Shown in pieces: positions 2,196 to 60,877 of a stretch of DNA of 64,000 nucleotides. Source of the stretch: Euryarchaeota archaeon SM23-78 (lineage in GTDB: Archaea; Nanobdellota; Nanobdellia; Woesearchaeales; SM23-78); the NCBI GenBank assembly GCA_001595785.1, contig LSSJ01000021.1, forward strand, positions 5,248 through 69,247, in the 5' to 3' direction. Position numbers and translations under genes: made by a program. The notes below the pieces were generated by a model that was not told the origin of the DNA, made no database searches, and worked only from the letters and a program-made list of their open reading frames with translations. Numbering within the stretch: the first letter of the stretch is position 1; every line of letters starts with the position of its first letter.

Positions 2196-2374
2196 GTTGT
2201 TGAGATTCTAAAAAAGGAGGTGCAATAGAAAAAGAGGGTAAAGCATAATTTGAGAAAAAAATCCTACATACTGAGGAGGTGTCTATCGAATCATGTTTCT
2301 GTCTTAAGGTTGCTTCTTTGAAGCAGGATTTACCTTTAAACAATCCAAAAATACAAGAAAAAGGAGAAAACAAA

Positions 2375-4090: not shown

Positions 4091-4101
4091 GGGAGGAAAT
4101 A

Positions 4102-4839: not shown

Positions 4840-4848
4840 GTAAAGTCA

Positions 4849-4910
4849 AGGGGCAACAGATGGAACTTGTCTGGATATAATATATCTAGATGAAACCTGT
4901 CTGTTGCCCT
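4849..4910 (+). promoter_or_regulatory. long extended hairpin between VWA gene and next gene
   Basis: AGGGGCAACAGA (4849-4860) pairs perfectly with TCTGTTGCCCT (4900-4910). An inner arm TCTGGATATA/TATATCTAGA also pairs. No U-tract follows. Confidence 0.3.
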
Positions 4911-4942
4911 AGGCTTACTCACAAAGGAGGTGAGTATAAACA

Positions 4943-6517: not shown

Positions 6518-6544
6518 GCAAAAAATAAACAAAGGAGGTTGTCT

Positions 6545-7267: not shown

Positions 7268-7279
7268 AAGGAGGTAAGT

Positions 7280-8443: not shown

Positions 8444-8605
8444 GGTAATAGGTGAGCTCTCCCCTTTCCAAGGATTGGTTTGAGCTCTCCTATTCTTTCA
8501 CTCTTAACAAACAAAAAGGAGGGAAAACACGAAAAGAGATTGAAAAACACAAAACATCAGTCTTTTCAAATCCAAAACAAAAAACCAAAAAAAAGGAGAA
8601 AAATT

Positions 8606-9691
8606 ATGAAATCGATGTTTATGAAAGGTTTTGCAATCGCTTTGGCGGTTGCTCTTGTCGTTTCTTTCATGACGCCGACCAATATCTGGGCTGCCAAGAA
8701 GACCAAATTCATCCTGGCCGGGTCGATCTATGCAGGCTGGATGCCTTGGTACTATGCAAATCAGTCCGGAATCCTCAAGAAATGGGCTAACAAGTACGGT
8801 ATTCAGATCGAATTTCGTCACATGGATTACATTCCTTCGGTTGTGGCATTCGTCGCCAAAAGAGCCGATGCTTGTGTGATGACCAACATGGAAGCCCTGG
8901 ACATGCCGGCTGCTGCAGGAGTATCAACCACAGTCATCATTCTCGGAGACTTTTCCAATGGCAATGACGCAGGTCTGGGTAGAGAGGGTTGTGAAACCAT
9001 ACAGCAATGGAAAGGAAAAGAAGTCTATTTGGTTGAATTTTCTGTTTCACACTATAGTGTGGTTCGAATTCTTGAAGAGAATGGGATGAAGGAATCTGAC
9101 ATAAAAATTGTTAATGTCAGTGATAGTGACATCGCTCCGGCCTTTATTGCCAACACCAGTCAGAAGGCTGTTGTTACCTGGAATCCCTTGGTTATGGAGA
9201 TTCTTCAGGAACCAGGCATCACTAAGGTCTTTGACTCTTCTGAGATACCTGGAGAGATTCTTGATCTGTGTGTGGTTCGCACCGAAGTTCTTGAGGACAA
9301 TCCTGACTTTGCCGAGGCCTTGACCGGAGCATGGTACGAAGTAATGGGCATCATGTCCAAACGCGGATCAACTGCAGATAACGCAATGGAGTCGATGGCT
9401 GAATCTGCTGGCTGTTCTTTGACAGAATACAAGAACCAGCTCAAAACCACGATGATGTATTACACGCCGGAATCAGCAGCAGAGTACATGTCAAGCGCAG
9501 AAGTCAGGAAGAATATGGACTATGTCCGGAACTTCTGCTTCAAACACAACCTGCTCGGCGAAAATGCCAGTTCGGTCGACGAAGTCGGTATTCAGTATCC
9601 CGACGGCACAGTTCAGGGTGACAGGAACAATATCCAGTTCATCTTTGACGCTTCGTTCATGCGCAAAGCAGCTGAAGGCAAACTGAAGTAA
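8606..9691 (+). CDS. ABC transporter substrate-binding protein (NitT/TauT, NMT1-like)
   Basis: ATG at 8606 follows AAAGGAG and gives signal peptide MKSMFMKGFAIALAVALVVSF. NMT1-like SBP features are present. Permease and ATPase genes follow. Confidence 0.65.
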   Translation: MKSMFMKGFAIALAVALVVSFMTPTNIWAAKKTKFILAGSIYAGWMPWYYANQSGILKKWANKYGIQIEFRHMDYIPSVVAFVAKRADACVMTNMEALDMPAAAGVSTTVIILGDFSNGNDAGLGREGCETIQQWKGKEVYLVEFSVSHYSVVRILEENGMKESDIKIVNVSDSDIAPAFIANTSQKAVVTWNPLVMEILQEPGITKVFDSSEIPGEILDLCVVRTEVLEDNPDFAEALTGAWYEVMGIMSKRGSTADNAMESMAESAGCSLTEYKNQLKTTMMYYTPESAAEYMSSAEVRKNMDYVRNFCFKHNLLGENASSVDEVGIQYPDGTVQGDRNNIQFIFDASFMRKAAEGKLK

Positions 9692-44344: not shown

Positions 44345-44584
44345 TTACTCCTTAATAACCCCTCTATAAAATACTATCTCTCCAGCAGTCCTGCTCTTAC
44401 GACTGATCTTAATAATATCTCCTTCTTTTACATTTAGATTCGCAATTGCAGGATCATTTATAAGAATCTTAGGAATCTCCCTAATAGTAATATTAAATTT
44501 TTTTAGTAGAGCCTTTACTTCGTTCTCAGAGAGCTTGGTGTGCTCAGGAATTAATTCATGATTGATTTGTGCTTTTGCGCTCAT
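44345..44584 (-). CDS. rpoH: DNA-directed RNA polymerase subunit H (Rpb5-like)
   Basis: 79 aa from the internal ATG at 44584 (MSAKAQINHELIPEHTKLSENEVKALLKKFNI..). The longer tracked ORF (to 44650) overlaps tRNA-Lys and was trimmed. Confidence 0.85.
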   Translation of the reverse strand: MSAKAQINHELIPEHTKLSENEVKALLKKFNITIREIPKILINDPAIANLNVKEGDIIKISRKSRTAGEIVFYRGVIKE

Positions 44585-44599
44585 TTTCAAATCTTGAAT

Positions 44600-44742
44600 G
44601 GGCCGGACGAGACTTTCCAGGAAATAATTCCCTTTTGAACTCGCGACCACACGATTACTTTTCCTTATGATTAAAAGTCGTGTGCTCTAACTCCCAAGCA
44701 ATGCAAAATTGCAAAGGCTTACCAGGCTGAGCTACCGGCCCA
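44600..44742 (-). tRNA. tRNA-Lys(UUU) with three introns (D-loop, canonical 37/38, T-loop 59/60)
   Basis: Manual fold. Acceptor GGGCCGG/CCGGCCC plus discriminator A; D stem GCTC/GAGC; anticodon stem CACGA/TCGTG with loop CTTTTA|A; T stem GCGAG/CTCGT with loop TTCAAA|T. Intervening blocks lie at about 44691-44720, 44657-44672 and 44614-44634. No encoded CCA. Confidence 0.75.
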
Positions 44743-44807
44743 GATTCTCTGGCCGGCAAACAAAAATCGCTGAGCGATTTTTGGGCCGTCCAGTTCGCTT
44801 TTCAAGC

Positions 44808-44961
44808 GCCCTGGCCGGGATTCGAACCCGGGTCGAAGCCTTACCACGACTCAAAAATCATTAATGAATAATGATTATAAGTTCTCGACAGGGCTTCATG
44901 ATAGTTGCTGCAGGGAACCCCCGGACGGGTTACCGCTGGGCCAGACTACACCACCAGGGCT
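44808..44961 (-). tRNA. tRNA-Asp(GUC) with two introns (D-loop and anticodon loop)
   Basis: Acceptor GCCCTGG/CCAGGGC plus discriminator G; GGTGTAGTCTGG..TCATG D-arm; anticodon stem AAGCC/GGCTT with loop CTGTCG|A; T arm CCGGG-TTCGAAT-CCCGG. Exon sequence closely follows typical archaeal tRNA-Asp. Introns at about 44905-44940 and 44843-44886; D-loop boundary is +/- a few nt. Confidence 0.7.
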
Positions 44962-45346: not shown

Positions 45347-45622
45347 ATGGAATTAAAGGTTCATGAGCATACCAAGAAAAGAATGGTCTTTGAGTTCATT
45401 GGAGCAGACCACACCTTCTGTAATGCTCTAAAAAAAGAGTTATGGAATGACAGCACTGTAAGAGCAGCAGCTTACAAGATTGAGCATCCGCTTATTGGTA
45501 TTCCAAAATTCATAGTTGAGACTAATGGTCAGAAGGATGCAAAGGCTGTTCTAAAAACAGCTGCTACTAGACTTAAAAAGCATAACAAAGATTTCTTGAG
45601 TTTGTTTAAGAAGGCTAGATAA
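45347..45622 (+). CDS. rpoL: DNA-directed RNA polymerase subunit L (Rpb11-like)
   Basis: 91 aa. FEFIGADHTFCNALKKELWNDSTVRAAAYKIEHPLIGIPKFIVET. Confidence 0.85.
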   Translation: MELKVHEHTKKRMVFEFIGADHTFCNALKKELWNDSTVRAAAYKIEHPLIGIPKFIVETNGQKDAKAVLKTAATRLKKHNKDFLSLFKKAR

Positions 45623-45627
45623 GGATA

Positions 45628-46596
45628 TTATTTCTCAAACTCCATTCCTAAGGTTAAGCCTAGCTTGGCTACTGCATCACTTATCTCTGATGCTTTTTTT
45701 AGACCAATATTTTTGTATGTACTCCTTAATTCTTTTTCTGATTTTGCTACAAGGTCTTTGATTGTGTTAATGCGGTGTTTAGGAGAAGAATGACTGCCTG
45801 ATCTTATTAAAGCATTGAAAGCTGGAGTGGATAAATATGGCTGCAAAATATTTATTGGCTCATTAAGATATCCATCTGGTCCCGGGCCTGGTTTTTCCTT
45901 TAGTCTTTTTTCTATTTCACCTATATGTCCCTCTACTTTTCTGATAAGAGCATCCAACCTAGGAATTATTACAGTTTCTTTGATATTTGCTTTAGAATCA
46001 ATACTTGCATATTTCTCAGCTAAACTTGCTAATCCAGAATCTCTAAACTTTTTTAAGGCTCTGTTTTTTATATCATTTACTCTTTGTTTGGAAATATTCA
46101 TCTCTCCTGCAATGTATTCAGTACTGTAAGATATACCATCCTCTGTTAAACCATAATACATTCTTAGTGCTTTTTGGTGATTCTGATTAGTAATAATATT
46201 AAGTAAATCTTCTATATCCTTATAAGCATAATACGGCAGTATATGCCCGAGAGAGTATTGCCCTGCATTAAAAGAATATCTGAATGATTCAAGAACATCA
46301 TTAGCTACTTTTTTTATGTATTCAGTATTATTAACAAACTCACTCATATCTTGATTTATGGTTTGTAAAACATAGCTCTTGGAAATTTCCAGCAGAGCTT
46401 TACTAGGTATGGGTATGTCAAAAAGGTCTCTAAAGAATTTTTTATATTTTCTTTGTAATGGGTCTCCAGACAATAAAAGGTTCTTCTCAAGTTTCTTAAC
46501 CTTAAATCCCAGAGTTCTCTCTACTTCATCTACAACTGAATGAGCTAACTTGCTTAAGAGTCTGGTTCTTTCTTGCTTATTCGCCATCTTGTACAC
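45628..46596 (-). CDS. protein with sigma-70 region-4-like HTH and RNAP alpha-subunit CTD-like helix-hairpin-helix domain
   Basis: HQKALRMYYGLTEDGISYSTEYIAGEMNISKQRVNDIKNRALKKFR fits the sigma region 4 pattern. The C-terminal LSTPAFNALIRSG..INTIKDLVAKSEKELRSTYKNIGLKKASEISDAVAKLGLTL fits the alpha-CTD pattern. Confidence 0.55.
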   Translation of the reverse strand: MYKMANKQERTRLLSKLAHSVVDEVERTLGFKVKKLEKNLLLSGDPLQRKYKKFFRDLFDIPIPSKALLEISKSYVLQTINQDMSEFVNNTEYIKKVANDVLESFRYSFNAGQYSLGHILPYYAYKDIEDLLNIITNQNHQKALRMYYGLTEDGISYSTEYIAGEMNISKQRVNDIKNRALKKFRDSGLASLAEKYASIDSKANIKETVIIPRLDALIRKVEGHIGEIEKRLKEKPGPGPDGYLNEPINILQPYLSTPAFNALIRSGSHSSPKHRINTIKDLVAKSEKELRSTYKNIGLKKASEISDAVAKLGLTLGMEFEK

Positions 46597-46690
46597 AGGG
46601 ATAATAACCCAATATTTATAACTTTCCTTATTTTTTAGTAGTAATACAATTAAGGTAAATTATTAAAACAAGTCACCATTCACCTCTTTC

Positions 46691-49086: not shown

Positions 49087-50970
49087 TTAATAATTAATCA
49101 TTATCTCAACATCCTTGCCGAATATACTCTTCAAATCCTCGAATATGGGCTCTTTGATAAACACTTTTTCTGGCATCTCAAGTCCTGTCAAGGCCTTCTC
49201 ATATTCTTCCAGAGAACTTGATTTTATGTTCTTCAATGAACCTTGTGCTGTGATGTCTGCCTTTGAGATGTCTTTATCCTCATTATCAATATCATGAATA
49301 ATAAAGGCCTTTTTACCTAGCAACACTACTTCTCCGAACTTATTGCCGTGCTTTACTCTTATCCTTGCTTTCTCAAGCTCTAAGCCTCTTTTTCTCTGGA
49401 TGTATTCTACCAGAAATCTTAAGAGTTCTCTTGAATCCTTTTGCACACTATGCACTTCTGCTTTGGTGAGCTTCTTAGCATCATAATCCTTTTTAGCCTT
49501 CTCAATCTCTTTAAGGATTCTTAGGTACTTCTCAGGCATGAGTCCTTTATGAACTACTTCCTCTTCAAAGGTCTTTATTATGGCAGTATCCCTGACTTTC
49601 TCAACTCCTTCCATTCTTAGGATGTCTCTAACAACTGTAACAATATTTTCATAGCTGTGAAGCACACTCTCCTCTTCTTTCTTCTTCTCAATGGCTTTGA
49701 ACAATTCTTCTAAACGCTTAAGATACTTCTCAGCATCCTTTAGCAGTTTATCAACCTCTGCTCCTGTGAGCTCCTTTTTAGTGCCGTGCTCAAGCTCTTT
49801 TCTAATCTCAATGTTTCTCTTTAGAATATCAATGTACTCTTTTTCTAAAAGCTTTTCCTTGTTAACAAAGATATCAGTCATAACCTCAGGAGTCTCCTTA
49901 GGGGTTGGTGGTGGTATACCGTACATCATAAGAGCTGCTTGGCTTGGGGTAAGGATTGCATAAAAGGTGTCTTCCATACCAATATCCTTTATCTTGAACT
50001 TAATCCTCTCAAGCATCTGTTCTCCTGTGCTCATAAACATGTCAATGGCTTCTGGGCTTGGCTTGATTCTTCCCATCTGCAACAGCAGCTTCCAGGGCAT
50101 GAATATGCCTCTGTCATAAAAAGGAATACCATCTCTAAGAAAAGTAAAGAAGATAGGATTAGCCTCTTTAATGCCCTCCCAGAAATCAGTAAGAATCCAG
50201 ACCTGAATATTTATCTTGTTCTCAATGCCTGTGAGCTTACCAGCTTCAAAGCCCATGCTAATAATTATAGCCCTAAGCTTATCCTTGAGTTCAGCCCTGG
50301 TCATCTTCTTAACATCAGTATCATCAACAATGATGCACACATCAATATCACTGGTATGAGTTGCTTTGCCCTGAACAATGCTTCCTGCTAATATATAAGA
50401 GACAATGTACTTCTCAAACTTCTTAAGCACCATGTTCTTATGAATCTCAGCTATCTTAATAGCTGCAAGCATGCCAGTATCATGCACAGGAGCACTCAAA
50501 GCAATCATCTGCAATATCTCATACTTGGCATCATAACAAGCCTGCCACACTTCTGTTAATATAATTGTCTTAGGAGCCAGGTTCTTATCCACCTCTTCTG
50601 CCATCTTATCAATAATACCGCTCAGTCTTTCCTTAAGCTCCTCCTTGGTCATTTTCTGAGAATCAGAATCATCAACTAATACAAGCACATTAATCTTTTC
50701 TTTTTTCTCATCTTCTTTGTCAGGTGGTAGAAGAGCAACCCCCATTATATAGCCTTCAAACTTGCTTACAATCTTGTCCTTAAAAGCCTCTAGCTTGTCC
50801 TTAATCTCTTCTAATCTCTTCTTAGCCTCATCAGGAATCTTCTCAGCCATTTTATCAAGTTCCTTGTTAAGAACACCATCCTTTTTCTTCTCTTCCTGCT
50901 TCTTAAGCACTTTTTCTGCTTCCTCTTTCTTAACAGCAGCTACTTTTTTTGCCTTCATCTTCTTTGCCAA
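49087..50970 (-). CDS. fused nucleotidyltransferase (degenerate + active minimal NTase) protein with possible HEPN-like C-terminal region
   Basis: GSIVQGKATHTSDIDVCIIVDD is a classic minimal NTase motif. An earlier NVLVLVDDSD segment lacks the GS/DxD residues. One Rx4H (RKELEH) lies in the helical C-terminal part. Confidence 0.45.
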   Translation of the reverse strand: MAKKMKAKKVAAVKKEEAEKVLKKQEEKKKDGVLNKELDKMAEKIPDEAKKRLEEIKDKLEAFKDKIVSKFEGYIMGVALLPPDKEDEKKEKINVLVLVDDSDSQKMTKEELKERLSGIIDKMAEEVDKNLAPKTIILTEVWQACYDAKYEILQMIALSAPVHDTGMLAAIKIAEIHKNMVLKKFEKYIVSYILAGSIVQGKATHTSDIDVCIIVDDTDVKKMTRAELKDKLRAIIISMGFEAGKLTGIENKINIQVWILTDFWEGIKEANPIFFTFLRDGIPFYDRGIFMPWKLLLQMGRIKPSPEAIDMFMSTGEQMLERIKFKIKDIGMEDTFYAILTPSQAALMMYGIPPPTPKETPEVMTDIFVNKEKLLEKEYIDILKRNIEIRKELEHGTKKELTGAEVDKLLKDAEKYLKRLEELFKAIEKKKEEESVLHSYENIVTVVRDILRMEGVEKVRDTAIIKTFEEEVVHKGLMPEKYLRILKEIEKAKKDYDAKKLTKAEVHSVQKDSRELLRFLVEYIQRKRGLELEKARIRVKHGNKFGEVVLLGKKAFIIHDIDNEDKDISKADITAQGSLKNIKSSSLEEYEKALTGLEMPEKVFIKEPIFEDLKSIFGKDVEIMINY

Positions 50971-51104: not shown

Positions 51105-51944
51105 CTATTCTTTCTTTAAAGGCAGGTACTCTTCTTCAGCCTCTTTACCTAATAGCCTACCATATTTACTTAATAAATCTGTGTGACCAAGGTGTGCTAT
51201 GGTCTCCTTAGGCTGTAAGTTCCTTTCCTCTAGTTGTTTTATAAAGTATTTCTTAATCTTGGGTGCATCTTCTAACCTAAAGTAGTGGTCCATGATACGC
51301 TGCTGAGTATGCATTGAATAGCCTGTAATAGTATCCTCACTAAGAGTATCAAGGTAACTTTCAACCTCAACTCTTTGTTTTCCTTTTAATGTGTTGGCAA
51401 GTGCTTGGATACTCATTATTCTCTGCCCTTTTCCCTTGTCTGCTCCAGCAGCTATCATACGATCAAAAAGTGCGGCTTTAAACTTAAATATCTCTTCTTC
51501 TGTGTAAAGCGTTCCATCAGATTTTCCTTTTTTCAGGTCTTCTTCAAGCTCCTTCCAGTGCTCATAAGTGGTATGTTTTAAGAACTCATCCATAAACGGA
51601 CCCAGCACTTTTCTAATATCTTCCTCTCTTTCTAATTTATCAGTATCCCTCCCTAATATTTTATAAAGCGAATTCAAGGCATAGTACTTGGCACCTTTCT
51701 CTTTGGTAGGATGCCCTCCTCTGACAATTGCACCTAAGTCCTTCATAAATCTTTCCTGAAACTTGTGTTCAGGATGATGATAATACTCAAACAGTTTTAA
51801 TTTATCTTCTAGTGACTCAGGGGGTTTTTCCTTGAAGCCAGCTTCTTTCTCAAGAAGCCCTTTTATATTGTAGAATCTGTCAGGATGTTTTCCAATATCA
51901 TCATCAATTTGTGGTATTTTTTTCTCTTCAGCCATAAGTATCAC
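51105..51944 (-). CDS. hypothetical protein
   Basis: 279-aa ORF. No recognisable motifs. Confidence 0.4.
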   Translation of the reverse strand: MILMAEEKKIPQIDDDIGKHPDRFYNIKGLLEKEAGFKEKPPESLEDKLKLFEYYHHPEHKFQERFMKDLGAIVRGGHPTKEKGAKYYALNSLYKILGRDTDKLEREEDIRKVLGPFMDEFLKHTTYEHWKELEEDLKKGKSDGTLYTEEEIFKFKAALFDRMIAAGADKGKGQRIMSIQALANTLKGKQRVEVESYLDTLSEDTITGYSMHTQQRIMDHYFRLEDAPKIKKYFIKQLEERNLQPKETIAHLGHTDLLSKYGRLLGKEAEEEYLPLKKE

Positions 51945-53303: not shown

Positions 53304-55610
53304 TTACTTAAACACAGGCATTACTTCTGCTTTATAAGTTCTAGAATAATCATCTATTTTATCCATCTCTTCCAATTGTTCTAGACATGCTCCTGGAGGA
53401 ACACTGTTTTGTAGGTTGGGTAGTTTTAACACTCTGAAATCAAGCTCTTGGCTGTTGTCAAGCTGTGCTGAGGTTATTTTTAACAAACCTGTTGTACTAG
53501 TTTTTATCTCTACTCCTCCCCAAGGAGCCGGATCTAAAACAACCTCTGGGTCAGGGAAATAGGTATGCTCTGTACACCCAATACCAAGTAAACCTCTCTT
53601 GCTACACACCCTTGAGCAGTTTGCAGGGATAGTAACACCATTATAATCAATAAGATTAGCTGTTACCTCATACTCACTAGGCACTAGTTTTATAGCGCCC
53701 TTACTAACACCTTCCCTTCCAAATATTATTGTATTTGTTAACGGACTGGTTCCTGCTTCAAACCCTGTCTGAGTAATGGTCAGTATTACTTGTTCAGCTC
53801 CCTCATCAATACCCTGTAATAAACCTATGCTGTCAGGCCCTGGTTCCCATTCCCAATCATCATTCCTATTAAATATTTTCTGTATCTCAAGCTTCTTAAC
53901 ACTAGCATTAATCTCTCTTATTATCTCAAGCTTTTGAGTTGGGAGCAAAGCCCCTTTTCCTTCCTGGGTGCTGAGCATAATTGTTTTTGAACCATACCCC
54001 TCCTTACTGAGAGCAAGGTATCCTCCTTGACATATTGGAAGCTTGCCTTTCCACTCACCTGCTGTGTCTGTTATACCCGCCCAGCACTCATCATAATCAC
54101 CACAGCCATAACTCACACTTACTCCTTCAAGAGGAGCTTTATGCTTTGCATCAGTTGCTCTTAAACTAACCTCTCCTGATAACCAAGTGGCTTCATCACA
54201 GAACAAGCTCTTAGTGGTGCTTCTTGGTTTTAAATTAATTGGATTACCATCAGCATCATGAATACTATCTTCTGGAAAGGTGAAGGTTGTATTAATATAG
54301 GAATAATCCCAGTCAACTGTTCCTAGCCCAAGATTCCATGCTAACACTCCTTTATTCTCAATTAGATTACTTTCCAAGGCAAACAGGAAGCTGTACTCTG
54401 GGATGTCTGTTGTTGGCTCATAACCCCTTATCTCAACAATAACAGGGTAAGCAACATCATAGTAGAACTTATAAGTATTGAATTCTCTCTTAGGAATATA
54501 CTGGTTACCTTCTTGTACCTCAATATTTGGCTTTATACGGTCTCCTTTTGAAGGCTGAACCCTCATGCTTAGAGTGTTATCAGGATAAAAAAAGGTTATT
54601 GCTATGTTTGGCAGGCTCTCATTGAATATCTCCATGCTTAGACTCTTATAAAAAGAAGCCTCAACATCATCTCCTTGAACTGTTATTGGTTCATAACCCT
54701 TTGTGCCTACTACTTGTAGAGTAGGGGTATAGCTCCTTAAGAGCCCACTAAAATCAGTCCAAACCTTGATGTTGCTCCAGGTAATCACATAAGGTACATT
54801 GGTGTAGTCTATCATTGGTGGAAGCATGTTAGAGTCAAGCCCTGAGTAATAAGATATAAGGCTGAGGGTAAAGCTTTCTAAGAACTGGCTTATTAGTTCT
54901 GCACCCATCATGTTAAGAGCAAGCTCATAATATTTTTTAAAAGGAAACCTTACTATGTTATGGTGTTGTTTAATCCTTGCCTTAACATTCTCTTTGGTCA
55001 GGTTTAACTCATAGTTAACATAGAATTCTATCTTATCATCTTTTATATAAGTGGTTGTTTTAATATTATCATCATCAGCATCAACATCATATTGTTTTTC
55101 TAATTCTTTAAATCCTCTAGTGCATTTAGGGAGTTCTCTGCTCATATACACGCTAAGCTGATACTCCATGCTCTGAATAGTTGGAGCAAATGAACCTAAT
55201 CTGTAGTTAAGATAATCTGATTTGCCAGGAACATGTAGATAGTAAGGCACAAGCCCATCCTCATCCCCTGTTAATGAGGTTAGTTCATAGCTTGTTGGTG
55301 CACTAGGATTATACCGCAGGAGGACTGGTGTAAGCTCAGAGTCTAATGGATCAATGTATCCTCCATGCATACCCATCTCCTTTAATGCTTTTATTCCAAC
55401 ATCATGTATACAGGCTTCTACATAGGAACTTACAACCTTGAATTCTTCTGGCACCTCTTCTACTTCAGAACCGTCTTCAATAGAAAGTCTTCTAAAAACA
55501 GCAAAGTATAATATCAGGAATGCTATTAAAATGACTAATGCAAGAATCACAAACAAGGTAATCTGAGCCTTTCTTTCACCTCTTTTTTGAAGCATTTTTG
55601 CACCGTCCAA
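53304..55610 (-). CDS. large extracellular protein with type IV pilin-like (class III) signal peptide
   Basis: N-terminus ..KRGERKA|QITLFVILALVILIAFLILYF shows basic residues, a small residue, Q, then a hydrophobic helix. 768 aa. Alternative start at 55595. Confidence 0.55.
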   Translation of the reverse strand: MDGAKMLQKRGERKAQITLFVILALVILIAFLILYFAVFRRLSIEDGSEVEEVPEEFKVVSSYVEACIHDVGIKALKEMGMHGGYIDPLDSELTPVLLRYNPSAPTSYELTSLTGDEDGLVPYYLHVPGKSDYLNYRLGSFAPTIQSMEYQLSVYMSRELPKCTRGFKELEKQYDVDADDDNIKTTTYIKDDKIEFYVNYELNLTKENVKARIKQHHNIVRFPFKKYYELALNMMGAELISQFLESFTLSLISYYSGLDSNMLPPMIDYTNVPYVITWSNIKVWTDFSGLLRSYTPTLQVVGTKGYEPITVQGDDVEASFYKSLSMEIFNESLPNIAITFFYPDNTLSMRVQPSKGDRIKPNIEVQEGNQYIPKREFNTYKFYYDVAYPVIVEIRGYEPTTDIPEYSFLFALESNLIENKGVLAWNLGLGTVDWDYSYINTTFTFPEDSIHDADGNPINLKPRSTTKSLFCDEATWLSGEVSLRATDAKHKAPLEGVSVSYGCGDYDECWAGITDTAGEWKGKLPICQGGYLALSKEGYGSKTIMLSTQEGKGALLPTQKLEIIREINASVKKLEIQKIFNRNDDWEWEPGPDSIGLLQGIDEGAEQVILTITQTGFEAGTSPLTNTIIFGREGVSKGAIKLVPSEYEVTANLIDYNGVTIPANCSRVCSKRGLLGIGCTEHTYFPDPEVVLDPAPWGGVEIKTSTTGLLKITSAQLDNSQELDFRVLKLPNLQNSVPPGACLEQLEEMDKIDDYSRTYKAEVMPVFK

Positions 55611-55615
55611 AGTTT

Positions 55616-56440
55616 TTAATTTTTTATGTGCTTAGTAATATTAATAATATATATAATATAATTCCTTACCCACCCCATGAAAAACAGGGCAAATATTAAG
55701 GTGATTATTGCGAATAAAACAGGGATTTCAATGAACAAACCAGTGATTAAGAGCAGGATTAACATTAGTAGAATGGCTGTGATTAAGAAAAATATAAACC
55801 AATGAACTCTCTTAATACATTTAAAGAACTTGGAAAAGTTCTGTCTTAGAGTTTTCTTTTCATCAAAAACAGTTCTAAGGGCAGGGTCAGAGTAGAGGAA
55901 GAACAAGAATTCAATTAGAATAAAAAAGGTTGCTACTGGAATTACAAAAACATTTATGGTTATAATAAGAATTATTATCCAAGCAATTAACCACACAAAA
56001 TTCAGTAAAAAATATTTTCTAAAAGCAAGTGTACTGAACTTTTTCTTCAATCTTATACTCCAAGCCTTGCCATAGAACAAAGAGATAAAGAAGACTAAGA
56101 GTAAGCAGGTAATAATAGAGATGATAAGGGACAGCCATAAAACCCTGTTAAGCACAGGAGCAAACTCTACTATTGCTTGTTGAAAAACCTCTTCATTACC
56201 ATTTTGCCCTAACTGATAAACATTTAATAATTTAGGAAAGGCTGGTACACTTACAAGATTGATGAATAAGGCACCTATATTCAGGACAATAAGAATGGCT
56301 ATTAAGGTTAAGAAGTCATAAAGCATGGCTTTAAAAAAAGCCTTGTTAGGAATATTCCTAAAACTCGCTAATAAGGCGTCTCTTTGAGTAAGCCAGTACT
56401 TAGTGCTCTTGCTCTTTTTTTGTTTTCTAATCATCCTCAT
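55616..56440 (-). CDS. hypothetical polytopic membrane protein
   Basis: 274 aa with about 6 TM helices. 4-nt overlap with the upstream gene. Confidence 0.55.
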   Translation of the reverse strand: MRMIRKQKKSKSTKYWLTQRDALLASFRNIPNKAFFKAMLYDFLTLIAILIVLNIGALFINLVSVPAFPKLLNVYQLGQNGNEEVFQQAIVEFAPVLNRVLWLSLIISIITCLLLVFFISLFYGKAWSIRLKKKFSTLAFRKYFLLNFVWLIAWIIILIITINVFVIPVATFFILIEFLFFLYSDPALRTVFDEKKTLRQNFSKFFKCIKRVHWFIFFLITAILLMLILLLITGLFIEIPVLFAIITLIFALFFMGWVRNYIIYIINITKHIKN

Positions 56441-57099
56441 TTTTCCACAACACTAACAATCACCTCATTAACCACAGTACTTCCATAATCCCTGTACTCA
56501 AGCACAACCTTATCATACTCTTTTTTAAGGTAACGAGCATCAAAGCCACTATCACCAACATATCTACTCACATCTTCCCAATCAGTATCCTTAGTGCCTT
56601 TCTTGCCAACAAAATACTCTTGATCAGAGTCTTTTTTAAGATAAACCCTGTACAAAGCATCATTACTATAAGGCATGATATACCAAGAAACTGAGTAAAG
56701 ATAGGTATTGTTAAAGCCTTTCTGCTTTATAGCAGAGACTGTGACGGTAGTTGTATAAATTCTCCACTCCTCCTCAATATCTTCCATAACAACATTCCTA
56801 ATATTCATTACATCAGTTGTAAGACCAATAAGACACACCTCTCTCTCCCAGTTAGCCAAGCCAAAGAAAGTATCATTATACCAACCATAAACATCAGCAT
56901 TATCATAAGGGTTTATCTCGCCTTTGGGAGGAATAAAAGGCCATAAAGAGTACCAGAAATTATGAAGAACATTTGATTGATTCCCACCATAATCCTTAAA
57001 CCATCCAGGCCTATAATCATCAACAGACACTCCTATTACAAGGAAACAATTAATCATGAACAATAATACAGTTATTACTACAAGTTTCTTAATCATCAT
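56437..57099 (-). CDS. hypothetical membrane-anchored protein
   Basis: I prefer the start at MMIKKLVVITVLLFMINCFLVIGV (57099), which overlaps the upstream stop (ATGATGATTAA). The tracked ORF extends to 57192. Confidence 0.5.
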   Translation of the reverse strand: MMIKKLVVITVLLFMINCFLVIGVSVDDYRPGWFKDYGGNQSNVLHNFWYSLWPFIPPKGEINPYDNADVYGWYNDTFFGLANWEREVCLIGLTTDVMNIRNVVMEDIEEEWRIYTTTVTVSAIKQKGFNNTYLYSVSWYIMPYSNDALYRVYLKKDSDQEYFVGKKGTKDTDWEDVSRYVGDSGFDARYLKKEYDKVVLEYRDYGSTVVNEVIVSVVEK

Positions 57100-60000
57100 A
57101 ATCCACCCCATAACAAAAGTCCATCCCAGTAGCAGGAATATCAACAGGTGCATTGCCTGCAAGAGGGTTAAAACGATTCTTAGCAAAAGCAATTATTTCT
57201 CTTAAACTAAGTAAGCTGCCAGAAACACCGCAAGCAGCAGCTCTCCAGCCTTTGAGCACACCTCCAAAGTCAAGGGTTGCACCACCAGGCACCTGATAAT
57301 GCACACACCCAGGCATCACAAACAAGTAAGTAGTTGTTACGCCAAGACCTAAAAGGTTGCTAAAGAACACTCTTTTAATACTTCCAAGAATATTTCCTAG
57401 ATTAGCAGGACCCTCAATCTTATACCTAGCACTCTCAACATACAAGCACATATCTAGATTATACTCAAAATCACAAGCCTCTAAAGGACCTCCTTCCTTA
57501 ACCATCTGCTCAATACAACCAAGACGCTTACACAATATCTGTCTCTCCTTCCTATCATTAAACAAAATAGCAGGAGCACAGAACTTATCATAATGCTTGC
57601 TCTTATAAGGATTATAAATCCAGCTGCCATCATCACCCAAGAAAGCATCTATAGCATTCTGCATCCTGGTGTTAAGATTAAACCATTCTTTATTAGAGCC
57701 ATATAAATCAAAATTCTTAAAAGGATTAGTAACCCTGCCAGTGATTGAGTCTGAGTAAACAACATTACCTCCAAATAATTGGCTAATCCCTTTTTCAAAG
57801 CCCTTATATATCTTAGTATAATCTGTGTAGACTGGATATAACACATCATAAAGAGTGGTGAGCCCATATGCCTTTAAAAACCCATTTTGAACAGTTTTAA
57901 GTGATATAGACAATGAAGGGGTCTGCTTAGAGGGTTGTGGGGGGGTAACCTCATTGCTAACAACAGCTTTATTAGTCGTAGCAGGGTTAGGATTGCCAGA
58001 AGAGGGTGACGAAGGAGTTGTGGGTGAAGGGCCTGGGTATGTAAGTGGGTCTTCAAATACTTCTGGAGCTTGACTTTGGAGATTATTGAATTCTCTTGCA
58101 GGAGGTAAAGGTGTTAAAGGATTCCCTTCCATATCATATTTTTGAGATATTCCATTAGAGTTTGTTATTGTGTAAGTATTATCATCATTGTATTTTTTAG
58201 TGTAGGATACCTTGCCATTATCATCATAATATGCTACTGTTTTCCCGTCTCCTGAGATGTATTGTTTTATTTTGCCATTAGCATCATAGACAGTGACCTC
58301 TCCTGTTTGCCCATTATATATCTGGGTTTCTCCTGTTTCTTTATCTACTTGCTCTATTGTTCCATCTTCATAAACAGTTATGCACTCCTCATCATCACAT
58401 TGCCTGTCTGTAATTATTATATTATTCCTTGTCGCATAATACGCACCTATACTCACACCTATGTCTACATAGGTGTTGAAGTCATATAATTTGCATGTGT
58501 AGATTGCACAGGTTCCTTTTAAGAGTAATCCCACAGTGTTTCCTCCTGTTGGCACCCATCCTTGAGGCCAGGTGAATGAATCAACAAAGTTCTCAATGCC
58601 TGAGAGAAAAGGATTTACTGTGTTCCATATTACTTCTCCTATGCCTAGTGGTTCAAGAGCAACGCATAAACCCCAAAGAGCTGATTTAAGTGATTGTAGT
58701 ACTTGATTAACCTTGGCTATTCCTTCTGCAAGATTACACAGGGTTCCAAGATAGGTGTACACCTTTGCATACTTATCTATTTGTTTGTCAAGTCTTATTA
58801 TCTGTTTTTTTATCTCATCCACTTTTTTCTGATAAGATTCATTAAGAGTGCCTAAGGGTTGATTAAACACCTCTAGCTCTGCTGTTATGTGTTCTTCTTC
58901 TGGCAAGGTATATATCTTGTTACCATGCTTTATCATGAACTCTTGAGTGCAGTTAACTTTTACCTTATCATCCTCATCCCACTCTTCATCATATTTTAAA
59001 GGAATGATAAGGATTGGTTTTAGGTCTTCATCATTCATCATATAAGCCTGACCTGCCATACCAGGAGTGTCTGAACAATCAACAATGGTAGTCTGCGTTA
59101 TCTCAACATCCTTGTTCTTTTTTATTATCTCAAGAGATAAGGGTGTTTTCACTGTTATCCTACTAGCTGTTCTTCTATCAATCTTAGGCAGCTTTCCCTT
59201 TGTTATTATCTTATCAATTAAGACAGGGACTTGGGCAAGTTCAACACATATACTTACAGGAACACTCTTGATTAACTGGTTACCTGCAAAGTCCTCCACT
59301 ACAAGGTTTAAGTTAGTGTTTATCTCCTGGGCTTTTAGATTGCTTATGCTCAGAGTGCATGCCCAGTTATTACTTGTACCTATTTGTACACAACTAGCTT
59401 TGCTCTCATTATCACTACTAATACCAAGAGTATAAGCACTTGCTGTTACTCCTAAGCTCTGGGCTTCAGTAACATTAAAGGTTATATAAAGGGTTTCTGT
59501 ACTTGTTGGACACTCTGGTGTTGTGTTAATCTCTCCTAATATATTAGGAGGTGTTGAGTCAATCACAATGATTAGGTCTGATTCTGCTGTGAGATGGTTT
59601 CCTAAGTCATCAAAGCCTTCTAAGTTTAGCTTACCACTAAAACTACTAACATCTGCTGTGCAAACCCAGGTCTGGTTATAGGTACAAGCAGCCTGAGTGT
59701 CTTCTATCCTTACCTTGCTCTCATTAAAGCTGCTGCTAGTAGAAATTTCTGCGGTTATCTCATTAGCACCTGATTTTAAGTAGCAGGTATCTTGGTAACA
59801 CTTATCAAGGGCTGGTCCAAGCCTGGTAACACTACCAGCATCATTAACCACTGTGAAGCTTAGCACAAGTGATTGATTAGCACTATTATCCATTTGATCA
59901 GTTGCTTTTACAGTGCATCTTGTGCTACTGCTGGCAGGGCTTAGCTTAATATTTTTAAAAGTGCATATATGTGTGTTGTTCCAGCCTTGTCTTAAACAAT

Positions 60001-60877
60001 CAGCACTAACCCCGCTCTGGTCTTTGCTCCTAGTTTTGTCAAGCTCTGAGAAATTACCACTAGCACTAACACTCATGGTATCCTCTTCAACCACTACTTC
60101 TACATCAACATCTATCACTCTTGAGCTATTAGTTGATATCTTACTAACCACTTCTTTGGTGCCTGCTTGGTAGACCTGTGCACTACTACTAATCTTTGGA
60201 GGAACAGTGTCAATAAACACTTGACTCTCACTAGTATTTGCTACTAGTCCTACATAGTCATAAGCTTTTAGACTAGCATTAACCTTTCCTATAAAGTTAG
60301 GAATGGTTCCAATAAGAAACCCACTAACACTGCACTGCCCTACAAGGTGATTAGTTGTGTTAATAACCTGTCTATTAAGGATTAGTTCTACTTTTTCAAT
60401 TCCAGAACATTTATTCAAGAAGTACTGGTTAGCCTGGTCTGTAATAGCATAACTTGCTTTTACTTTGTTCTTAAGGCTAGTAGGAGTAAACGATGATATC
60501 TTAGGCCCAAGGTTATCCACATAAGCCTCCACATTTTTCTCTGATTGAGACACATCCTCTTTTACAGTAGCGCTTACTTTACCCGTTACATTGGTAATAG
60601 GATGAGTGTATGTGCACTCCCAAGCAGTTGCTGGCTGAATACAAGTCATACTTTCATAAGTATTATTAGTAAAATCAGCTTTTACACTACATTTCATGGT
60701 AGACCTGGTGTTTATCACAAGAGTATCATCAGATCTTGTAATCCCTGGCACTTTATCTGTATCTCCATAAGCCTCTGCTTTGAAGATACTTGCAAATACA
60801 AGAGAGCTAAAAAAAGTCAATGATATTACAAGATAAATCATTAACAATGCTATTAGTTTACTACTCCTCACCTTCAA
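57089..60877 (-). CDS. giant secreted surface protein (1262 aa) with Ig-like repeats, YD-repeat-like stretch, PST linker and Cys-containing C-terminal domain
   Basis: Signal peptide MKVRSSKLIALLMIYLVISLTFFSSLVFA. VTVYDANGKIKQY, VAYYDDNGKVSYT and QKYDMEGNPL (about 58125-58400). Linker PGPSPTTPSSPSSGNPNPATT. Confidence 0.65.
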   Translation of the reverse strand: MKVRSSKLIALLMIYLVISLTFFSSLVFASIFKAEAYGDTDKVPGITRSDDTLVINTRSTMKCSVKADFTNNTYESMTCIQPATAWECTYTHPITNVTGKVSATVKEDVSQSEKNVEAYVDNLGPKISSFTPTSLKNKVKASYAITDQANQYFLNKCSGIEKVELILNRQVINTTNHLVGQCSVSGFLIGTIPNFIGKVNASLKAYDYVGLVANTSESQVFIDTVPPKISSSAQVYQAGTKEVVSKISTNSSRVIDVDVEVVVEEDTMSVSASGNFSELDKTRSKDQSGVSADCLRQGWNNTHICTFKNIKLSPASSSTRCTVKATDQMDNSANQSLVLSFTVVNDAGSVTRLGPALDKCYQDTCYLKSGANEITAEISTSSSFNESKVRIEDTQAACTYNQTWVCTADVSSFSGKLNLEGFDDLGNHLTAESDLIIVIDSTPPNILGEINTTPECPTSTETLYITFNVTEAQSLGVTASAYTLGISSDNESKASCVQIGTSNNWACTLSISNLKAQEINTNLNLVVEDFAGNQLIKSVPVSICVELAQVPVLIDKIITKGKLPKIDRRTASRITVKTPLSLEIIKKNKDVEITQTTIVDCSDTPGMAGQAYMMNDEDLKPILIIPLKYDEEWDEDDKVKVNCTQEFMIKHGNKIYTLPEEEHITAELEVFNQPLGTLNESYQKKVDEIKKQIIRLDKQIDKYAKVYTYLGTLCNLAEGIAKVNQVLQSLKSALWGLCVALEPLGIGEVIWNTVNPFLSGIENFVDSFTWPQGWVPTGGNTVGLLLKGTCAIYTCKLYDFNTYVDIGVSIGAYYATRNNIIITDRQCDDEECITVYEDGTIEQVDKETGETQIYNGQTGEVTVYDANGKIKQYISGDGKTVAYYDDNGKVSYTKKYNDDNTYTITNSNGISQKYDMEGNPLTPLPPAREFNNLQSQAPEVFEDPLTYPGPSPTTPSSPSSGNPNPATTNKAVVSNEVTPPQPSKQTPSLSISLKTVQNGFLKAYGLTTLYDVLYPVYTDYTKIYKGFEKGISQLFGGNVVYSDSITGRVTNPFKNFDLYGSNKEWFNLNTRMQNAIDAFLGDDGSWIYNPYKSKHYDKFCAPAILFNDRKERQILCKRLGCIEQMVKEGGPLEACDFEYNLDMCLYVESARYKIEGPANLGNILGSIKRVFFSNLLGLGVTTTYLFVMPGCVHYQVPGGATLDFGGVLKGWRAAACGVSGSLLSLREIIAFAKNRFNPLAGNAPVDIPATGMDFCYGVDYDD

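What the first reader, a model, noticed from the sequence alone, without database searches (positions are those of the whole stretch)
45628..46596. Sigma-70 region-4-like HTH fused to an RNAP alpha-CTD-like domain, encoded beside archaeal RNAP genes
This 322-aa protein has a mid-region segment (HQKALRMYYGLTEDGISYSTEYIAGEMNISKQRVNDIKNRALKKFR) that reads like bacterial sigma-70 region 4 (-35 recognition HTH). Its C-terminal segment (LSTPAFNALIRSG..INTIKDLVAKSEKELRSTYKNIGLKKASEISDAVAKLGLTL) reads like the bacterial alpha-subunit C-terminal domain. Archaeal transcription uses TBP/TFB, and its RpoD lacks an alpha-CTD. Both modules are bacterial RNAP-associated DNA/activator-contact domains. Finding them fused in one protein between rpoL and the rpoH-B-A operon suggests an unusual transcription factor. 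The N-terminal 130 aa match nothing I recognise.
Basis: partly seen in the sequence, partly recalled or inferred. Interest (0 to 1): 0.75.

Follow-up and report, generated by a model that had tools for sequence, protein, structure and literature searches.

The report
Archaeal sigma-4/alpha-CTD fusion DNA-binding protein
A Woesearchaeota archaeon encodes, beside its RNA polymerase genes, a fast-evolving protein built from two bacterial promoter-reading modules (sigma region 4 and the alpha-subunit C-terminal domain); it cannot be a sigma factor and most likely acts as a DNA-binding regulator acquired from bacteria, whose relatives turn out to be common in phages.

Summary
Window 45628-46587 (-) encodes a 319-aa protein; the real start is the ATG at 46587, not the GTG at 46596. 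It has three modules: an unclassifiable N-terminal helical domain, a sigma-70 region-4 HTH, and an RNAP alpha-CTD after a long helical linker. Pfam, profile-profile and structural comparisons all support both known domains. There is no sigma-2 or sigma-3, so it is not a sigma factor.

The gene sits in a Woesearchaeota core chromosome, has an archaeal TATA promoter, and lies tail-to-tail with rpoL in all six related loci found. The archaeal family is tiny (seven clusters among 1.84 billion representatives) and is unannotated.

It evolves about 3-10 times faster than its neighbours (26-53% identity against 72-89% for RpoL) but stays under net purifying selection (omega about 0.3-0.5).

The same three-domain architecture occurs in a bacterium with near-canonical RpoD and alpha-CTD determinants. 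Simpler sigma4-linker-alpha-CTD proteins recur in at least nine IMG/VR viral contigs and in a bacterial chromosome next to type IV secretion genes.

The window copy has lost key canonical DNA and partner contacts (R265P, R588N, Q589D, R603L).

Best reading: a horizontally acquired, repurposed bipartite DNA-binding regulator. This is a new variant of a known kind, and its function is untested.

The parts
45628..46587 (-). Whole CDS (319 aa plus stop) of the N-domain / sigma-4 / linker / alpha-CTD protein.
46613..46621 (-). TTATAAATA TATA box with a purine-rich BRE-like stretch just upstream, about 30 nt before the ATG. A TATA box in the same position is present in four further orthologous loci, and implies a leaderless or near-leaderless archaeal transcript.
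46243..46587 (-). N-terminal helical domain (residues 1-115; five helices; conserved VEKSLG and FFRDLF motifs). No Pfam match and no structural match. It is shared only with the archaeal orthologues and the bacterial protein P0025.
46009..46242 (-). Sigma-70 region-4 domain (residues 116-193; regions 4.1 and 4.2; recognition helix SKQRVNDIKNRALKKFR starts at residue 166).
45868..46008 (-). Long helical linker (residues 194-240) with a heptad pattern (7 of 11 a/d positions hydrophobic in the best register), ending in a flexible PGPGPDG. A possible coiled-coil dimerisation element (inferred).
   Evidence: weak bZIP_1 hit in the linker of relative P0015, below Pfam's cut-off
45631..45867 (-). RNAP alpha-subunit C-terminal domain (HhH; residues 241-319). 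The position equivalent to E. coli Arg265 is Pro255. An 8-residue basic insert, SHSSPKHR (residues 265-272), follows helix 1.
45347..45622 (+). rpoL (Rpb11 homologue, related to the bacterial alpha N-terminal domain), convergent with the gene; 5 bp separate the two stop codons. It is the only neighbour on this side retained in all six related loci.

Best explanation
The gene encodes a cytoplasmic, basic DNA-binding regulator, not a sigma factor. It descends by horizontal transfer from a bacterial three-domain protein.

That bacterial protein belongs to a wider, undescribed class of sigma4-helical linker-alpha-CTD proteins found in phages and bacteria. In the ancestral form the two modules probably read DNA together, as the separate RNAP subunits do on UP-element/-35 promoters (PDB 3N97). 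The sigma-4 HTH sits in the major groove at a TTGACA-like hexamer. The alpha-CTD HhH sits in an adjacent A/T-rich minor groove. The helical linker possibly dimerises the protein. Without sigma-2 or sigma-3 such proteins cannot bind core RNAP productively or open DNA, so they would occupy or mark promoter-like sites.

In the Woesearchaeota lineage there is no bacterial RNAP. The gene is driven by an archaeal TATA promoter and is kept in one chromosomal slot. It has been repurposed and diverges quickly, and its base-contacting residues differ between orthologues. The window copy has lost Arg265, Arg588/Gln589 and Arg603.

It most likely acts like other bacterial-type HTH regulators of archaea: it binds DNA with altered specificity near archaeal promoters, and the lineage-specific N-terminal domain supplies a partner contact.

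Shown: the domain identities, the absence of sigma-2/3, the archaeal promoter and context, the fast but constrained evolution, and the phage and bacterial relatives.
Inferred: DNA binding in vivo, dimerisation, a regulatory role, and the direction of transfer.
For: Domain identity:
- Pfam, PDB sequence search, Foldseek (TM 0.84-0.86, rmsd 1.2-1.5 A; hits include the 3N97 alpha-CTD/sigma4/UP-35 DNA complex), and hhalign (98.9% to RpoD region 4).

Not a sigma factor:
- No Sigma70_r2 or r3 hit.
- The N-domain has no fold match.
- hhalign finds no homology N-terminal of residue 123.

Resident archaeal gene:
- It lies on the same contig as rpoH-B''-B'-A'-A''-L30e-NusA-S12.
- It was recovered identically in at least six contigs from JGI, ENA and Logan assemblies.
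- A TATA box lies about 30 nt upstream, conserved in five loci.
- A relative's record is titled Candidatus Woesearchaeota.

Functional constraint:
- Intact ORFs of 305-320 aa in five lineages with 32 invariant columns.
- Omega of about 0.3-0.5.
- A confident fold.

Bacterial or phage origin:
- P0025 has the same three domains, an RpoD-like helix and tail (TRERIRQVEAKTLRKLRHPSRS), and alpha-CTD at 91.5 bits.
- P0025 sits beside MreB and MurA, with a Shine-Dalgarno sequence and a TTGATT-17-TATAAT promoter.
- Short fusions occur in at least nine IMG/VR viral contigs, in phage-like ORFan arrays, and in a bacterial chromosome next to type IV secretion genes.

DNA-binding potential:
- pI is 9.4.
- Backbone-contact positions are retained: R586, K/R593, K596, K597 and R599 in sigma-4; N268, G296 and K298 in alpha-CTD.
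Against: - No experiment shows DNA binding.
- The window copy lacks Arg265, the residue most critical for alpha-CTD binding to UP DNA (established knowledge of E. coli alpha). It also lacks R588 and Q589 of the -35 recognition set. Its DNA binding could therefore be weak, non-specific, or replaced by protein binding.
- No candidate operator could be identified. The upstream regions share only the promoter elements themselves.
- The direction of transfer rests on one bacterial relative (P0025).
- Pfam scores for the window protein itself are only just above the cut-offs.
- The coiled-coil inference is weak: a heptad count, plus a bZIP hit in a relative that is below Pfam's cut-off.
Confidence: 0.55

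Rival explanations
1. RNAP-tethered accessory factor. The N-terminal domain docks on the RpoD/RpoL assembly platform (the homologue of the bacterial alpha N-terminal domain). This would give the archaeal RNAP an alpha-CTD and a sigma-4 in trans, which contact DNA upstream of TATA/BRE.
For: The gene lies tail-to-tail with rpoL, with 5-40 bp between stop codons, in all six loci. Two of these (L006, L021) have a different gene on the far side of rpoL. The bacterial alpha subunit is an N-terminal domain (Rpb3/11-like) plus a CTD (established knowledge). Lineage-specific DNA-contacting archaeal RNAP subunits have a precedent in Rpo13 of Sulfolobales (my own knowledge).
Against: The two genes are on opposite strands, so they are not co-transcribed. 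All six genomes are close relatives (RpoL 72-89% identical), so synteny may simply be inherited. Only one rearrangement breakpoint tests the linkage. RpoL is highly conserved while this protein is 26-53% identical, which is unlike a tightly bound subunit. The bacterial relative P0025 has the same N-domain but a bacterial RNAP.
Confidence: 0.12
2. Conflict or host-interaction factor. The protein would be a mimic or decoy of bacterial promoter-recognition modules, aimed at a bacterial partner's transcription or at a virus, and evolving in an arms race.
For: Non-synonymous divergence is about 3-10 times that of neighbouring genes. Base-contacting residues differ between orthologues. The architecture is common in phages. 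DPANN archaea are generally predicted symbionts (PMC8204110).
Against: The N-terminus has no signal peptide or hydrophobic stretch (read directly from the sequence). No secretion or defence genes lie nearby. The gene sits in a housekeeping region rather than a variable island. Overall omega is below 1. The window copy has lost the very determinants a mimic of bacterial sigma-4/alpha-CTD would need. PADLOC was not run.
Confidence: 0.1
3. Decaying remnant of a horizontally acquired gene, with no current function.
For: dN is high (0.31-0.67). Canonical functional residues are lost. One orthologue (L021) carries an in-frame TAA.
Against: Five lineages keep intact ORFs of 305-320 aa, the same promoter and the same slot. 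Omega is 0.3-0.5, not about 1. All three domains fold confidently. Streamlined genomes such as those of DPANN archaea tend to lose useless genes (my own knowledge).
Confidence: 0.1
4. A genuine (minimal) sigma factor that directs transcription, in line with the earlier report of sigma-70 genes in Woesearchaeota.
For: Sigma70_r4 hits. Castelle et al. 2021 list a sigma-70 family as prevalent in Woesearchaeota. Minimal single-HTH sigma factors are described in phages (PMC7824862).
Against: There is no sigma-2 or sigma-3 by Pfam, NCBIfam, hhalign or fold search. The RNAP genes in the window are of the archaeal type, with no bacterial core genes. The gene's own promoter is a TATA box.
Confidence: 0.03

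Closest known systems
Region 4 of primary (group 1) sigma-70 factors (RpoD/SigA), Pfam PF04545
   Same: The fold is the same (TM 0.86, rmsd 1.2 A to S. aureus sigma-A region 4). Profile homology covers regions 4.1 and 4.2 and the C-terminal tail. Relatives keep the ERIRQIEAKALRKLRHP helix almost unchanged.
   Different: There is no sigma-1.1, sigma-2 or sigma-3. The region is embedded mid-protein. In the window copy the -35-reading residues R588 and Q589 are N and D, and R603 (the alpha-CTD contact) is L. The host has no bacterial RNAP (archaeal core genes only in the window).
C-terminal domain of the bacterial RNAP alpha subunit (RpoA alpha-CTD), Pfam PF03118
   Same: The double-HhH fold is the same (TM 0.84, rmsd 1.5 A, 34% identity to E. 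coli alpha-CTD). N268, G296 and K298 are retained.
   Different: It is not attached to an alpha N-terminal domain. Arg265 is replaced by Pro. An 8-residue insert follows helix 1. The 261 determinant (D258, D259, E261) is not conserved.
Alpha-CTD / sigma-4 / UP-element/-35 DNA ternary complex (PDB 3N97)
   Same: The same two modules cooperate on adjacent DNA sites in this complex. The fusion joins them covalently, and both chains of 3N97 are among the top structural hits. The bacterial relative P0025 keeps R603 and the D258/E261 equivalents.
   Different: In 3N97 the modules belong to two RNAP subunits within a holoenzyme. Here they sit in one polypeptide with no polymerase attachment, and the window copy has lost the inter-module contact residues.
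Unnamed sigma4-linker-alpha-CTD proteins of phages and bacteria (P0009, P0015, P0055, P0063; IMG/VR loci L022-L031)
   Same: The order of modules and the helical linker are the same. They are detected by the same profile.
   Different: They are shorter (about 211-230 aa) or carry unrelated N-terminal extensions. They keep near-canonical RpoD/RpoA determinants. They lie in viral contigs or next to type IV secretion genes. The archaeal N-domain is absent from them.
'Sigma-70' family (fam00359) reported in DPANN/Woesearchaeota by Castelle et al. 2021 (PMC8204110)
   Same: A bacterial sigma-like sequence encoded on bona fide Woesearchaeota scaffolds. The authors likewise found its role beside TBP/TFB/TFE unclear.
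   Different: The paper gives no domain architecture. I could not establish whether this protein belongs to that family. This protein is demonstrably not a complete sigma factor.

Membership tests
Sigma-70 family sigma factor | Sigma-2 domain (regions 2.1-2.4: core binding, -10 recognition and DNA melting) | tested here: not met
   No Sigma70_r2 hit in Pfam or NCBIfam. The N-domain model has no PDB fold match. hhalign against full-length RpoD shows no homology N-terminal of residue 123.
Sigma-70 family sigma factor | Sigma-4 domain (regions 4.1-4.2, HTH for the -35 element) | tested here: met
   PF04545 scores 24.3 bits (cut-off 24.1) here and 41-44 bits in orthologues. hhalign gives 98.9%. 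Foldseek gives TM 0.86.
Sigma-70 family sigma factor | Works with a bacterial-type core RNAP (alpha2-beta-beta'-omega) | tested here: inconclusive
   The window encodes archaeal RpoH, B'', B', A', A'' and L, and no bacterial core genes. Only 64 kb of the genome was visible.
Bacterial RNAP alpha subunit (RpoA) | N-terminal dimerisation and assembly domain (RNA_pol_L / RNA_pol_A_bac) | tested here: not met
   NCBIfam rpoA models match only residues 255-321 of the 322-aa translation, at 31 bits or less against cut-offs of 228 or more. No PF01193 or PF01000 hit.
Bacterial RNAP alpha subunit (RpoA) | C-terminal HhH domain (alpha-CTD) | tested here: met
   PF03118 scores 25.9 bits (cut-off 23.8) here and up to 55 bits in orthologues. 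1lb2_B gives TM 0.84 and rmsd 1.5 A.
Bacterial RNAP alpha subunit (RpoA) | '265 determinant' for UP-element DNA binding (R265, N268, C269, G296, K298, S299) | tested here: not met
   In the window protein R265 is P, C269 is A and S299 is K, while N268, G296 and K298 are kept. R265 is kept in P0003, P0004, P0005, P0025 and the phage-like or bacterial fusions.
Sigma4-linker-alpha-CTD fusion proteins (unnamed class defined here) | Sigma-4 N-terminal to alpha-CTD in one polypeptide, joined by a helical linker of about 50-60 residues | tested here: met
   The same profile covers both modules in 20 ORFs from viral, bacterial and archaeal loci.
Sigma4-linker-alpha-CTD fusion proteins (unnamed class defined here) | Joint recognition of adjacent major-groove and minor-groove DNA sites | not testable with these tools
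   Needs DNA-binding assays or a co-structure. This is inferred only by analogy with PDB 3N97.
Archaeal N-domain subfamily (P0001-P0005, P0007, P0008; bacterial P0025) | Conserved N-terminal helical domain with VEKSLG, FFRDLF and G.Y motifs | tested here: met
   Alignments A1 and A3. An HMM of this domain hits only the archaeal loci and L017/L018. P0025 was part of that HMM, so its hit there is by construction, but phmmer matched it independently over query residues 46-320.

The most novel reading that the evidence does not exclude
The protein is a lineage-specific, trans-acting appendage of the archaeal RNA polymerase. Its novel N-terminal domain docks on the RpoD/RpoL platform encoded next door. 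This would graft a bacterial-style alpha-CTD and sigma-4 onto a TBP/TFB-dependent polymerase, so that upstream promoter DNA is read in a hybrid bacterial/archaeal manner.
Probability: 0.1. Interest if true: 0.9.

Novelty: new variant of a known kind. Interest (0 to 1): 0.6.

Why it matters
Sigma region 4 and the alpha-CTD are the two RNAP modules that read upstream promoter DNA and receive activator signals in bacteria. Archaeal transcription is thought to lack both.

This protein shows the two modules travelling together as a single mobile gene, without a polymerase. They occur in phages, in bacteria, and as a fixed gene in an archaeal lineage.

The work defines an undescribed class of "promoter-reader" proteins. 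In phages and bacteria they may occupy UP/-35 promoters or compete with the holoenzyme. In the archaeon the protein is a natural experiment in what happens to bacterial promoter-recognition modules placed in a TBP/TFB cell: they are retained, driven by a TATA promoter, and rapidly re-specified.

It also suggests that 'sigma-70' calls made on region-4 similarity alone, as may apply to some reported in DPANN genomes, need not be sigma factors. Finally, it gives archaeal transcription researchers a concrete, small, soluble candidate to test for DNA and RNAP binding.

Tried and rejected
(1) Degenerate sigma factor. Rejected: there is no sigma-2 or sigma-3 by Pfam/NCBIfam, by fold search of the isolated N-domain or by hhalign against RpoD.

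(2) Generic HTH plus generic HhH resemblance. Rejected: the top hits are specifically RpoD region 4 and RpoA alpha-CTD, and intermediates such as P0025 keep RpoD's exact helix and tail.

(3) Bacterial contamination or mis-binning. Rejected: the gene is on the same contig as the archaeal RNAP operon, appears in several independent assemblies, and has an archaeal TATA promoter.

(4) Paralogues in the window. None found with a family HMM.

(5) The archaeal family in IMG/VR viral contigs. None found. The ~229-aa subgroup (A4) also found nothing in IMG/VR, and the first viral scan with A2 failed for lack of a conserved stretch.

(6) A specific PHROG family for the fusion. None; only the sigma-4 part hits sigma-factor PHROGs.

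(7) A conserved operator in the upstream regions. Only the shared TATA/BRE and the divergent AMMECR1 promoter are conserved, so no binding site could be proposed.

(8) Literature on the architecture. Four searches found no description. Iyer & Aravind 2012, the most likely place for one, is not held, so prior mention there cannot be excluded.

(9) Searches of GTDB genomes and JGI metagenomes returned only one additional locus each. The phyletic survey is therefore thin.

(10) An Rfam search of the rpoL-rpoH gap gave only a weak chance-level hit. The gap was explained instead by intron-bearing tRNAs.
Full report
THE OBSERVATION

The ORF reported at 45628-46596 (minus strand) exists. It is 322 aa if read from a GTG. 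Gene callers on independent public assemblies start it at the ATG at 46587, giving 319 aa (protein P0001). A TTATAAATA box at 46613-46621, preceded by a purine-rich stretch, lies about 30 nt upstream of that ATG. The GTG is therefore probably upstream of the transcript, and the mRNA is leaderless or nearly so. Residue numbers below refer to the 319-aa protein.

DOMAIN IDENTITIES

Pfam finds RNA_pol_A_CTD (25.9 bits, cut-off 23.8) and Sigma70_r4 (24.3 bits, cut-off 24.1). Both pass, but only just. NCBIfam's best hits are the C-terminal ends of RpoA models and of RpoD/SigA models. A sequence search of the PDB returns only alpha-CTD and sigma-A/RpoD region-4 chains.

The marginal scores are rescued by relatives. 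Orthologues P0003 and P0004 score 55/44 and 54/41 bits for the two domains. A profile of the family aligns to a profile of full-length RpoD proteins over residues 123-193 with 98.9% probability (E = 2e-17).

An AlphaFold2 model built from a five-sequence alignment is confident (mean pLDDT 84.9). Its C-terminal domain superposes on E. coli alpha-CTD (1lb2_B: TM 0.84, rmsd 1.5 A, 34% identity). Its middle domain superposes on S. aureus sigma-A region 4 (4g8x_A: TM 0.86, rmsd 1.2 A). Both chains of 3N97, the alpha-CTD/sigma-4/UP-35 DNA complex, are among the top hits.

WHAT IT IS NOT

The N-terminal 115-130 residues form a confident helical domain when modelled alone (pLDDT 86, pTM 0.80). It has no structural neighbour in the PDB (best E = 2, TM below 0.35) and no Pfam hit. 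hhalign finds no similarity to sigma-2 or sigma-3. The protein therefore lacks the domains that define a sigma factor (core binding, -10 recognition, DNA melting). It also lacks the alpha N-terminal domain, so it is neither a sigma factor nor an alpha subunit.

ANATOMY

- N-domain: residues 1-115.
- Sigma-4: residues 116-193. The recognition helix continues into a long helix.
- Linker: a second long helix (196-230) with a heptad pattern (7 of 11 a/d positions hydrophobic in the best register), then a flexible PGPGPDG segment.
- Alpha-CTD: residues 241-319.

The protein is basic (pI 9.4). Its N-terminus has no hydrophobic or signal-like stretch.

GENOMIC SETTING

The window is core archaeal chromosome. 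It carries rpoH, split rpoB''/B', rpoA', rpoA'', L30e, NusA-KH and S12, followed by housekeeping genes.

The local gene order is rpoH - two tRNAs - rpoL (+) - target (-) - AMMECR1 (+, divergent) - UPP synthase - CBS. The gene is thus tail-to-tail with rpoL, with 5 bp between the stop codons. It is not between rpoL and rpoH, and it is not part of the RNAP operon.

A related locus comes from a MAG titled Candidatus Woesearchaeota. NCBI calls the protein there 'hypothetical protein'.

THE FAMILY AND ITS EVOLUTION

An exhaustive HMMER scan of 1.84 billion cluster representatives finds only four further full-length clusters (P0002-P0005, 55-32% identical). It also finds two partial ones (P0007, P0008) and the more distant P0025. 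The word-indexed search of 5.8 billion proteins found nothing else.

All six loci that could be recovered (window, L016, L015, L006, L007, L021) place the gene tail-to-tail with rpoL, with 5-40 bp between stops. In L006 and L021 a methyltransferase, rather than the tRNAs and rpoH, lies beyond rpoL. Five of the loci share the TATA box position and the divergent AMMECR1 promoter.

The protein diverges far faster than anything around it:
- Across the six loci RpoL is 72-89% identical, while this protein is 26-53% identical.
- Between the window and L007, eleven neighbouring genes are 68-91% identical, against 30% for the target.
- Nei-Gojobori estimates give dN of 0.31-0.67 for the target and 0.06-0.2 for neighbours, at similar and nearly saturated dS. 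Omega is therefore about 0.3-0.5 for the target, against about 0.04-0.1 for most neighbours and up to 0.26 for rpoH.
- All four regions diverge: mean pairwise identity is 35% (N-domain), 38% (sigma-4), 25% (linker) and 30% (alpha-CTD).

The gene is therefore fast-evolving but constrained, not a pseudogene. One orthologue (L021) does carry an in-frame TAA.

FUNCTIONAL RESIDUES

I aligned the modules to E. coli sequences.

The sigma-4 modules of P0025, P0009, P0015 and P0063 keep RpoD's ERIRQIEAKALRKLRHP almost unchanged. Archaeal P0003 and P0004 keep E585, R586, R588 and Q589. The window protein has K584, Q585, R586, N588 and D589, and Leu in place of R603.

In the alpha-CTD, Arg265 is kept in P0003, P0004, P0005, P0008, P0025 and the other fusions. 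It is Pro255 in the window protein and Val in P0002. N268, G296 and K298 are kept in the window protein and most relatives. The window protein has an extra basic insert, SHSSPKHR (residues 265-272).

So the ancestral state looks like a competent reader of a -35-like hexamer plus an A/T-rich minor groove. The window copy has changed or lost that specificity.

WIDER RELATIVES

Sigma4-linker-alpha-CTD proteins without the archaeal N-domain are recurrent and unnamed. They occur in three settings:
- Contigs made of runs of tiny ORFans, which look like phage early regions.
- At least nine IMG/VR viral contigs of 4.6-100 kb.
- A bacterial chromosome (dnaN-dnaA-rnpA-yidD-yidC-jag) next to VirB4/TraC-like/PrgI/SLT type IV secretion genes.

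BFVD also holds phage proteins annotated 'RNA polymerase alpha subunit, C-terminal'.

P0025 carries the archaeal-type N-domain plus near-canonical sigma-4 and alpha-CTD (59.8 and 91.5 bits). Its host is a bacterium: it lies beside MreB and MurA (both above NCBIfam cut-offs), with a GGAGG Shine-Dalgarno sequence and a TTGATT-17-TATAAT promoter. The simplest history is a bacterial or phage invention of the fusion, addition of the N-domain in bacteria, and a single transfer into this Woesearchaeota lineage. This is an inference from one bacterial relative.

MECHANISM

The best-supported reading (confidence about 0.55) is a non-sigma, DNA-binding regulator.

By analogy with 3N97, the ancestral proteins bind adjacent major-groove and minor-groove sites with the two modules, and they possibly dimerise through the linker. 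Lacking sigma-2 or sigma-3, they can occupy promoter-like DNA but cannot initiate transcription.

In the archaeon, which shows only archaeal RNAP genes, the protein is expressed from a TATA promoter. It would act as other bacterial-type HTH regulators do in archaea, with re-specified DNA contacts and with the N-domain as a partner-binding surface. Fast divergence would follow from release of the original constraints (bacterial promoters and RNAP contacts) and adaptation to new targets.

Rivals:
- An RNAP-tethered appendage docking on RpoD/L (0.12). It is supported only by the rpoL linkage. It is weakened by the opposite strand, the close relatedness of the genomes, and the contrast between conserved RpoL and the fast-evolving protein.
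- A conflict or host-interaction mimic (0.10). It is supported by rate and phage relatives. It is weakened by the housekeeping location, the lack of secretion signals, omega below 1, and loss of the canonical determinants.
- A decaying remnant (0.10). It is weakened by intact ORFs, the conserved promoter and omega well below 1.
- A true sigma factor (0.03).

COMPARISON WITH WHAT IS KNOWN, AND NOVELTY

Castelle et al. 2021 (PMC8204110) already noted sigma-70-classified genes in Woesearchaeota and found their role unclear. That paper gives no architecture, so I could not establish whether this protein belongs to their family.

Four literature searches found no description of a sigma-4/alpha-CTD fusion. 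The Iyer & Aravind 2012 survey could not be read, so prior mention there cannot be excluded.

The parts are well-known domains. What is new is the architecture, its spread in phages and bacteria, its fixation beside rpoL in an archaeal lineage, its novel N-domain and its evolutionary rate. I rate it a new variant of a known kind, with interest 0.6.

LIMITS

- No binding site, partner or expression data exist.
- dS is near saturation.
- The coiled-coil inference and the direction of transfer are both weak inferences.

Noticed in passing
window 44599-44741 (-): A tRNA-Lys(UUU) gene interrupted by three introns (31 nt in the D-loop, 16 nt after the anticodon, 21 nt in the T-loop). Standard ARAGORN and Rfam both missed it. 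Splicing it in silico gives a canonical 75-nt tRNA that ARAGORN recognises. It ends about 15 nt upstream of the rpoH ATG, so the 101-aa GTG-started rpoH ORF in the mechanical list overlaps it and is probably too long (the true rpoH is 79 aa, 44345-44584).
   Followed up: yes
window 44806-44960 (-): A tRNA-Arg(CCT) with a 79-nt intron, found only when ARAGORN is run with introns allowed. Together with the tRNA-Lys it explains the GC-rich (45-59%), apparently empty 700-bp gap between rpoH and rpoL. Similar gaps exist in L007 and L015.
   Followed up: yes
window about 2279-9691 (+): A block with 45.6% GC (window mean 39%, target gene 33%) that carries bacterial-type genes in a row: VWA, an OmpA-family protein, an XpaC-like 'Halogen_Hydrol' protein, TelA and an NMT1-like binding protein, followed by ABC transporter genes. 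It is probably a horizontally acquired island of bacterial origin.
   Followed up: partly
window 51105-51944 (-), compared with L007 4689-5474: A second hypervariable gene in the otherwise conserved syntenic block. This 279-aa ORF has no Pfam hit, and its positional counterpart in L007 shares only 37% identity over 48 residues, while the flanking genes are 69-91% identical.
   Followed up: no
window 53304-60877 (-): Four consecutive large ORFs (768, 274, 251 and 1262 aa) have no Pfam match at all. They may be lineage-specific surface or interaction proteins of the kind common in DPANN genomes.
   Followed up: no
L021 1-830 (NCBI GCA_017973895.1, JAEMOI010072303.1): The orthologue annotated as the 231-aa protein P0008 continues upstream in the same frame through the family's FFRGLYEVP motif, but is interrupted by one in-frame TAA. 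The contig start also cuts it off. It is a pseudogene, an assembly error or a recoding event.
   Followed up: partly
P0006, P0010, P0017, P0018: Proteins carrying three to five tandem alpha-CTD copies. P0010 has three alpha-CTDs followed by a sigma-4 (150 bits for PF03118). This suggests a broader, unexplored world of free-standing alpha-CTD arrays outside RNAP.
   Followed up: no
L013 5234-7315 (NCBI GCA_024449685.1): A 693-aa protein with sigma-4 and alpha-CTD lies beside an N6/N4 DNA methyltransferase, an SNF2-family helicase and an SMC-like AAA ATPase. The setting looks like a mobile element or defence island.
   Followed up: no
window 49087-50970 (-): A 627-aa protein with a nucleotidyltransferase (Pol-beta-like) domain and long Lys/Glu-rich helical regions. 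It is 88% identical in L007, so it is strongly conserved, but it is otherwise uncharacterised.
   Followed up: no
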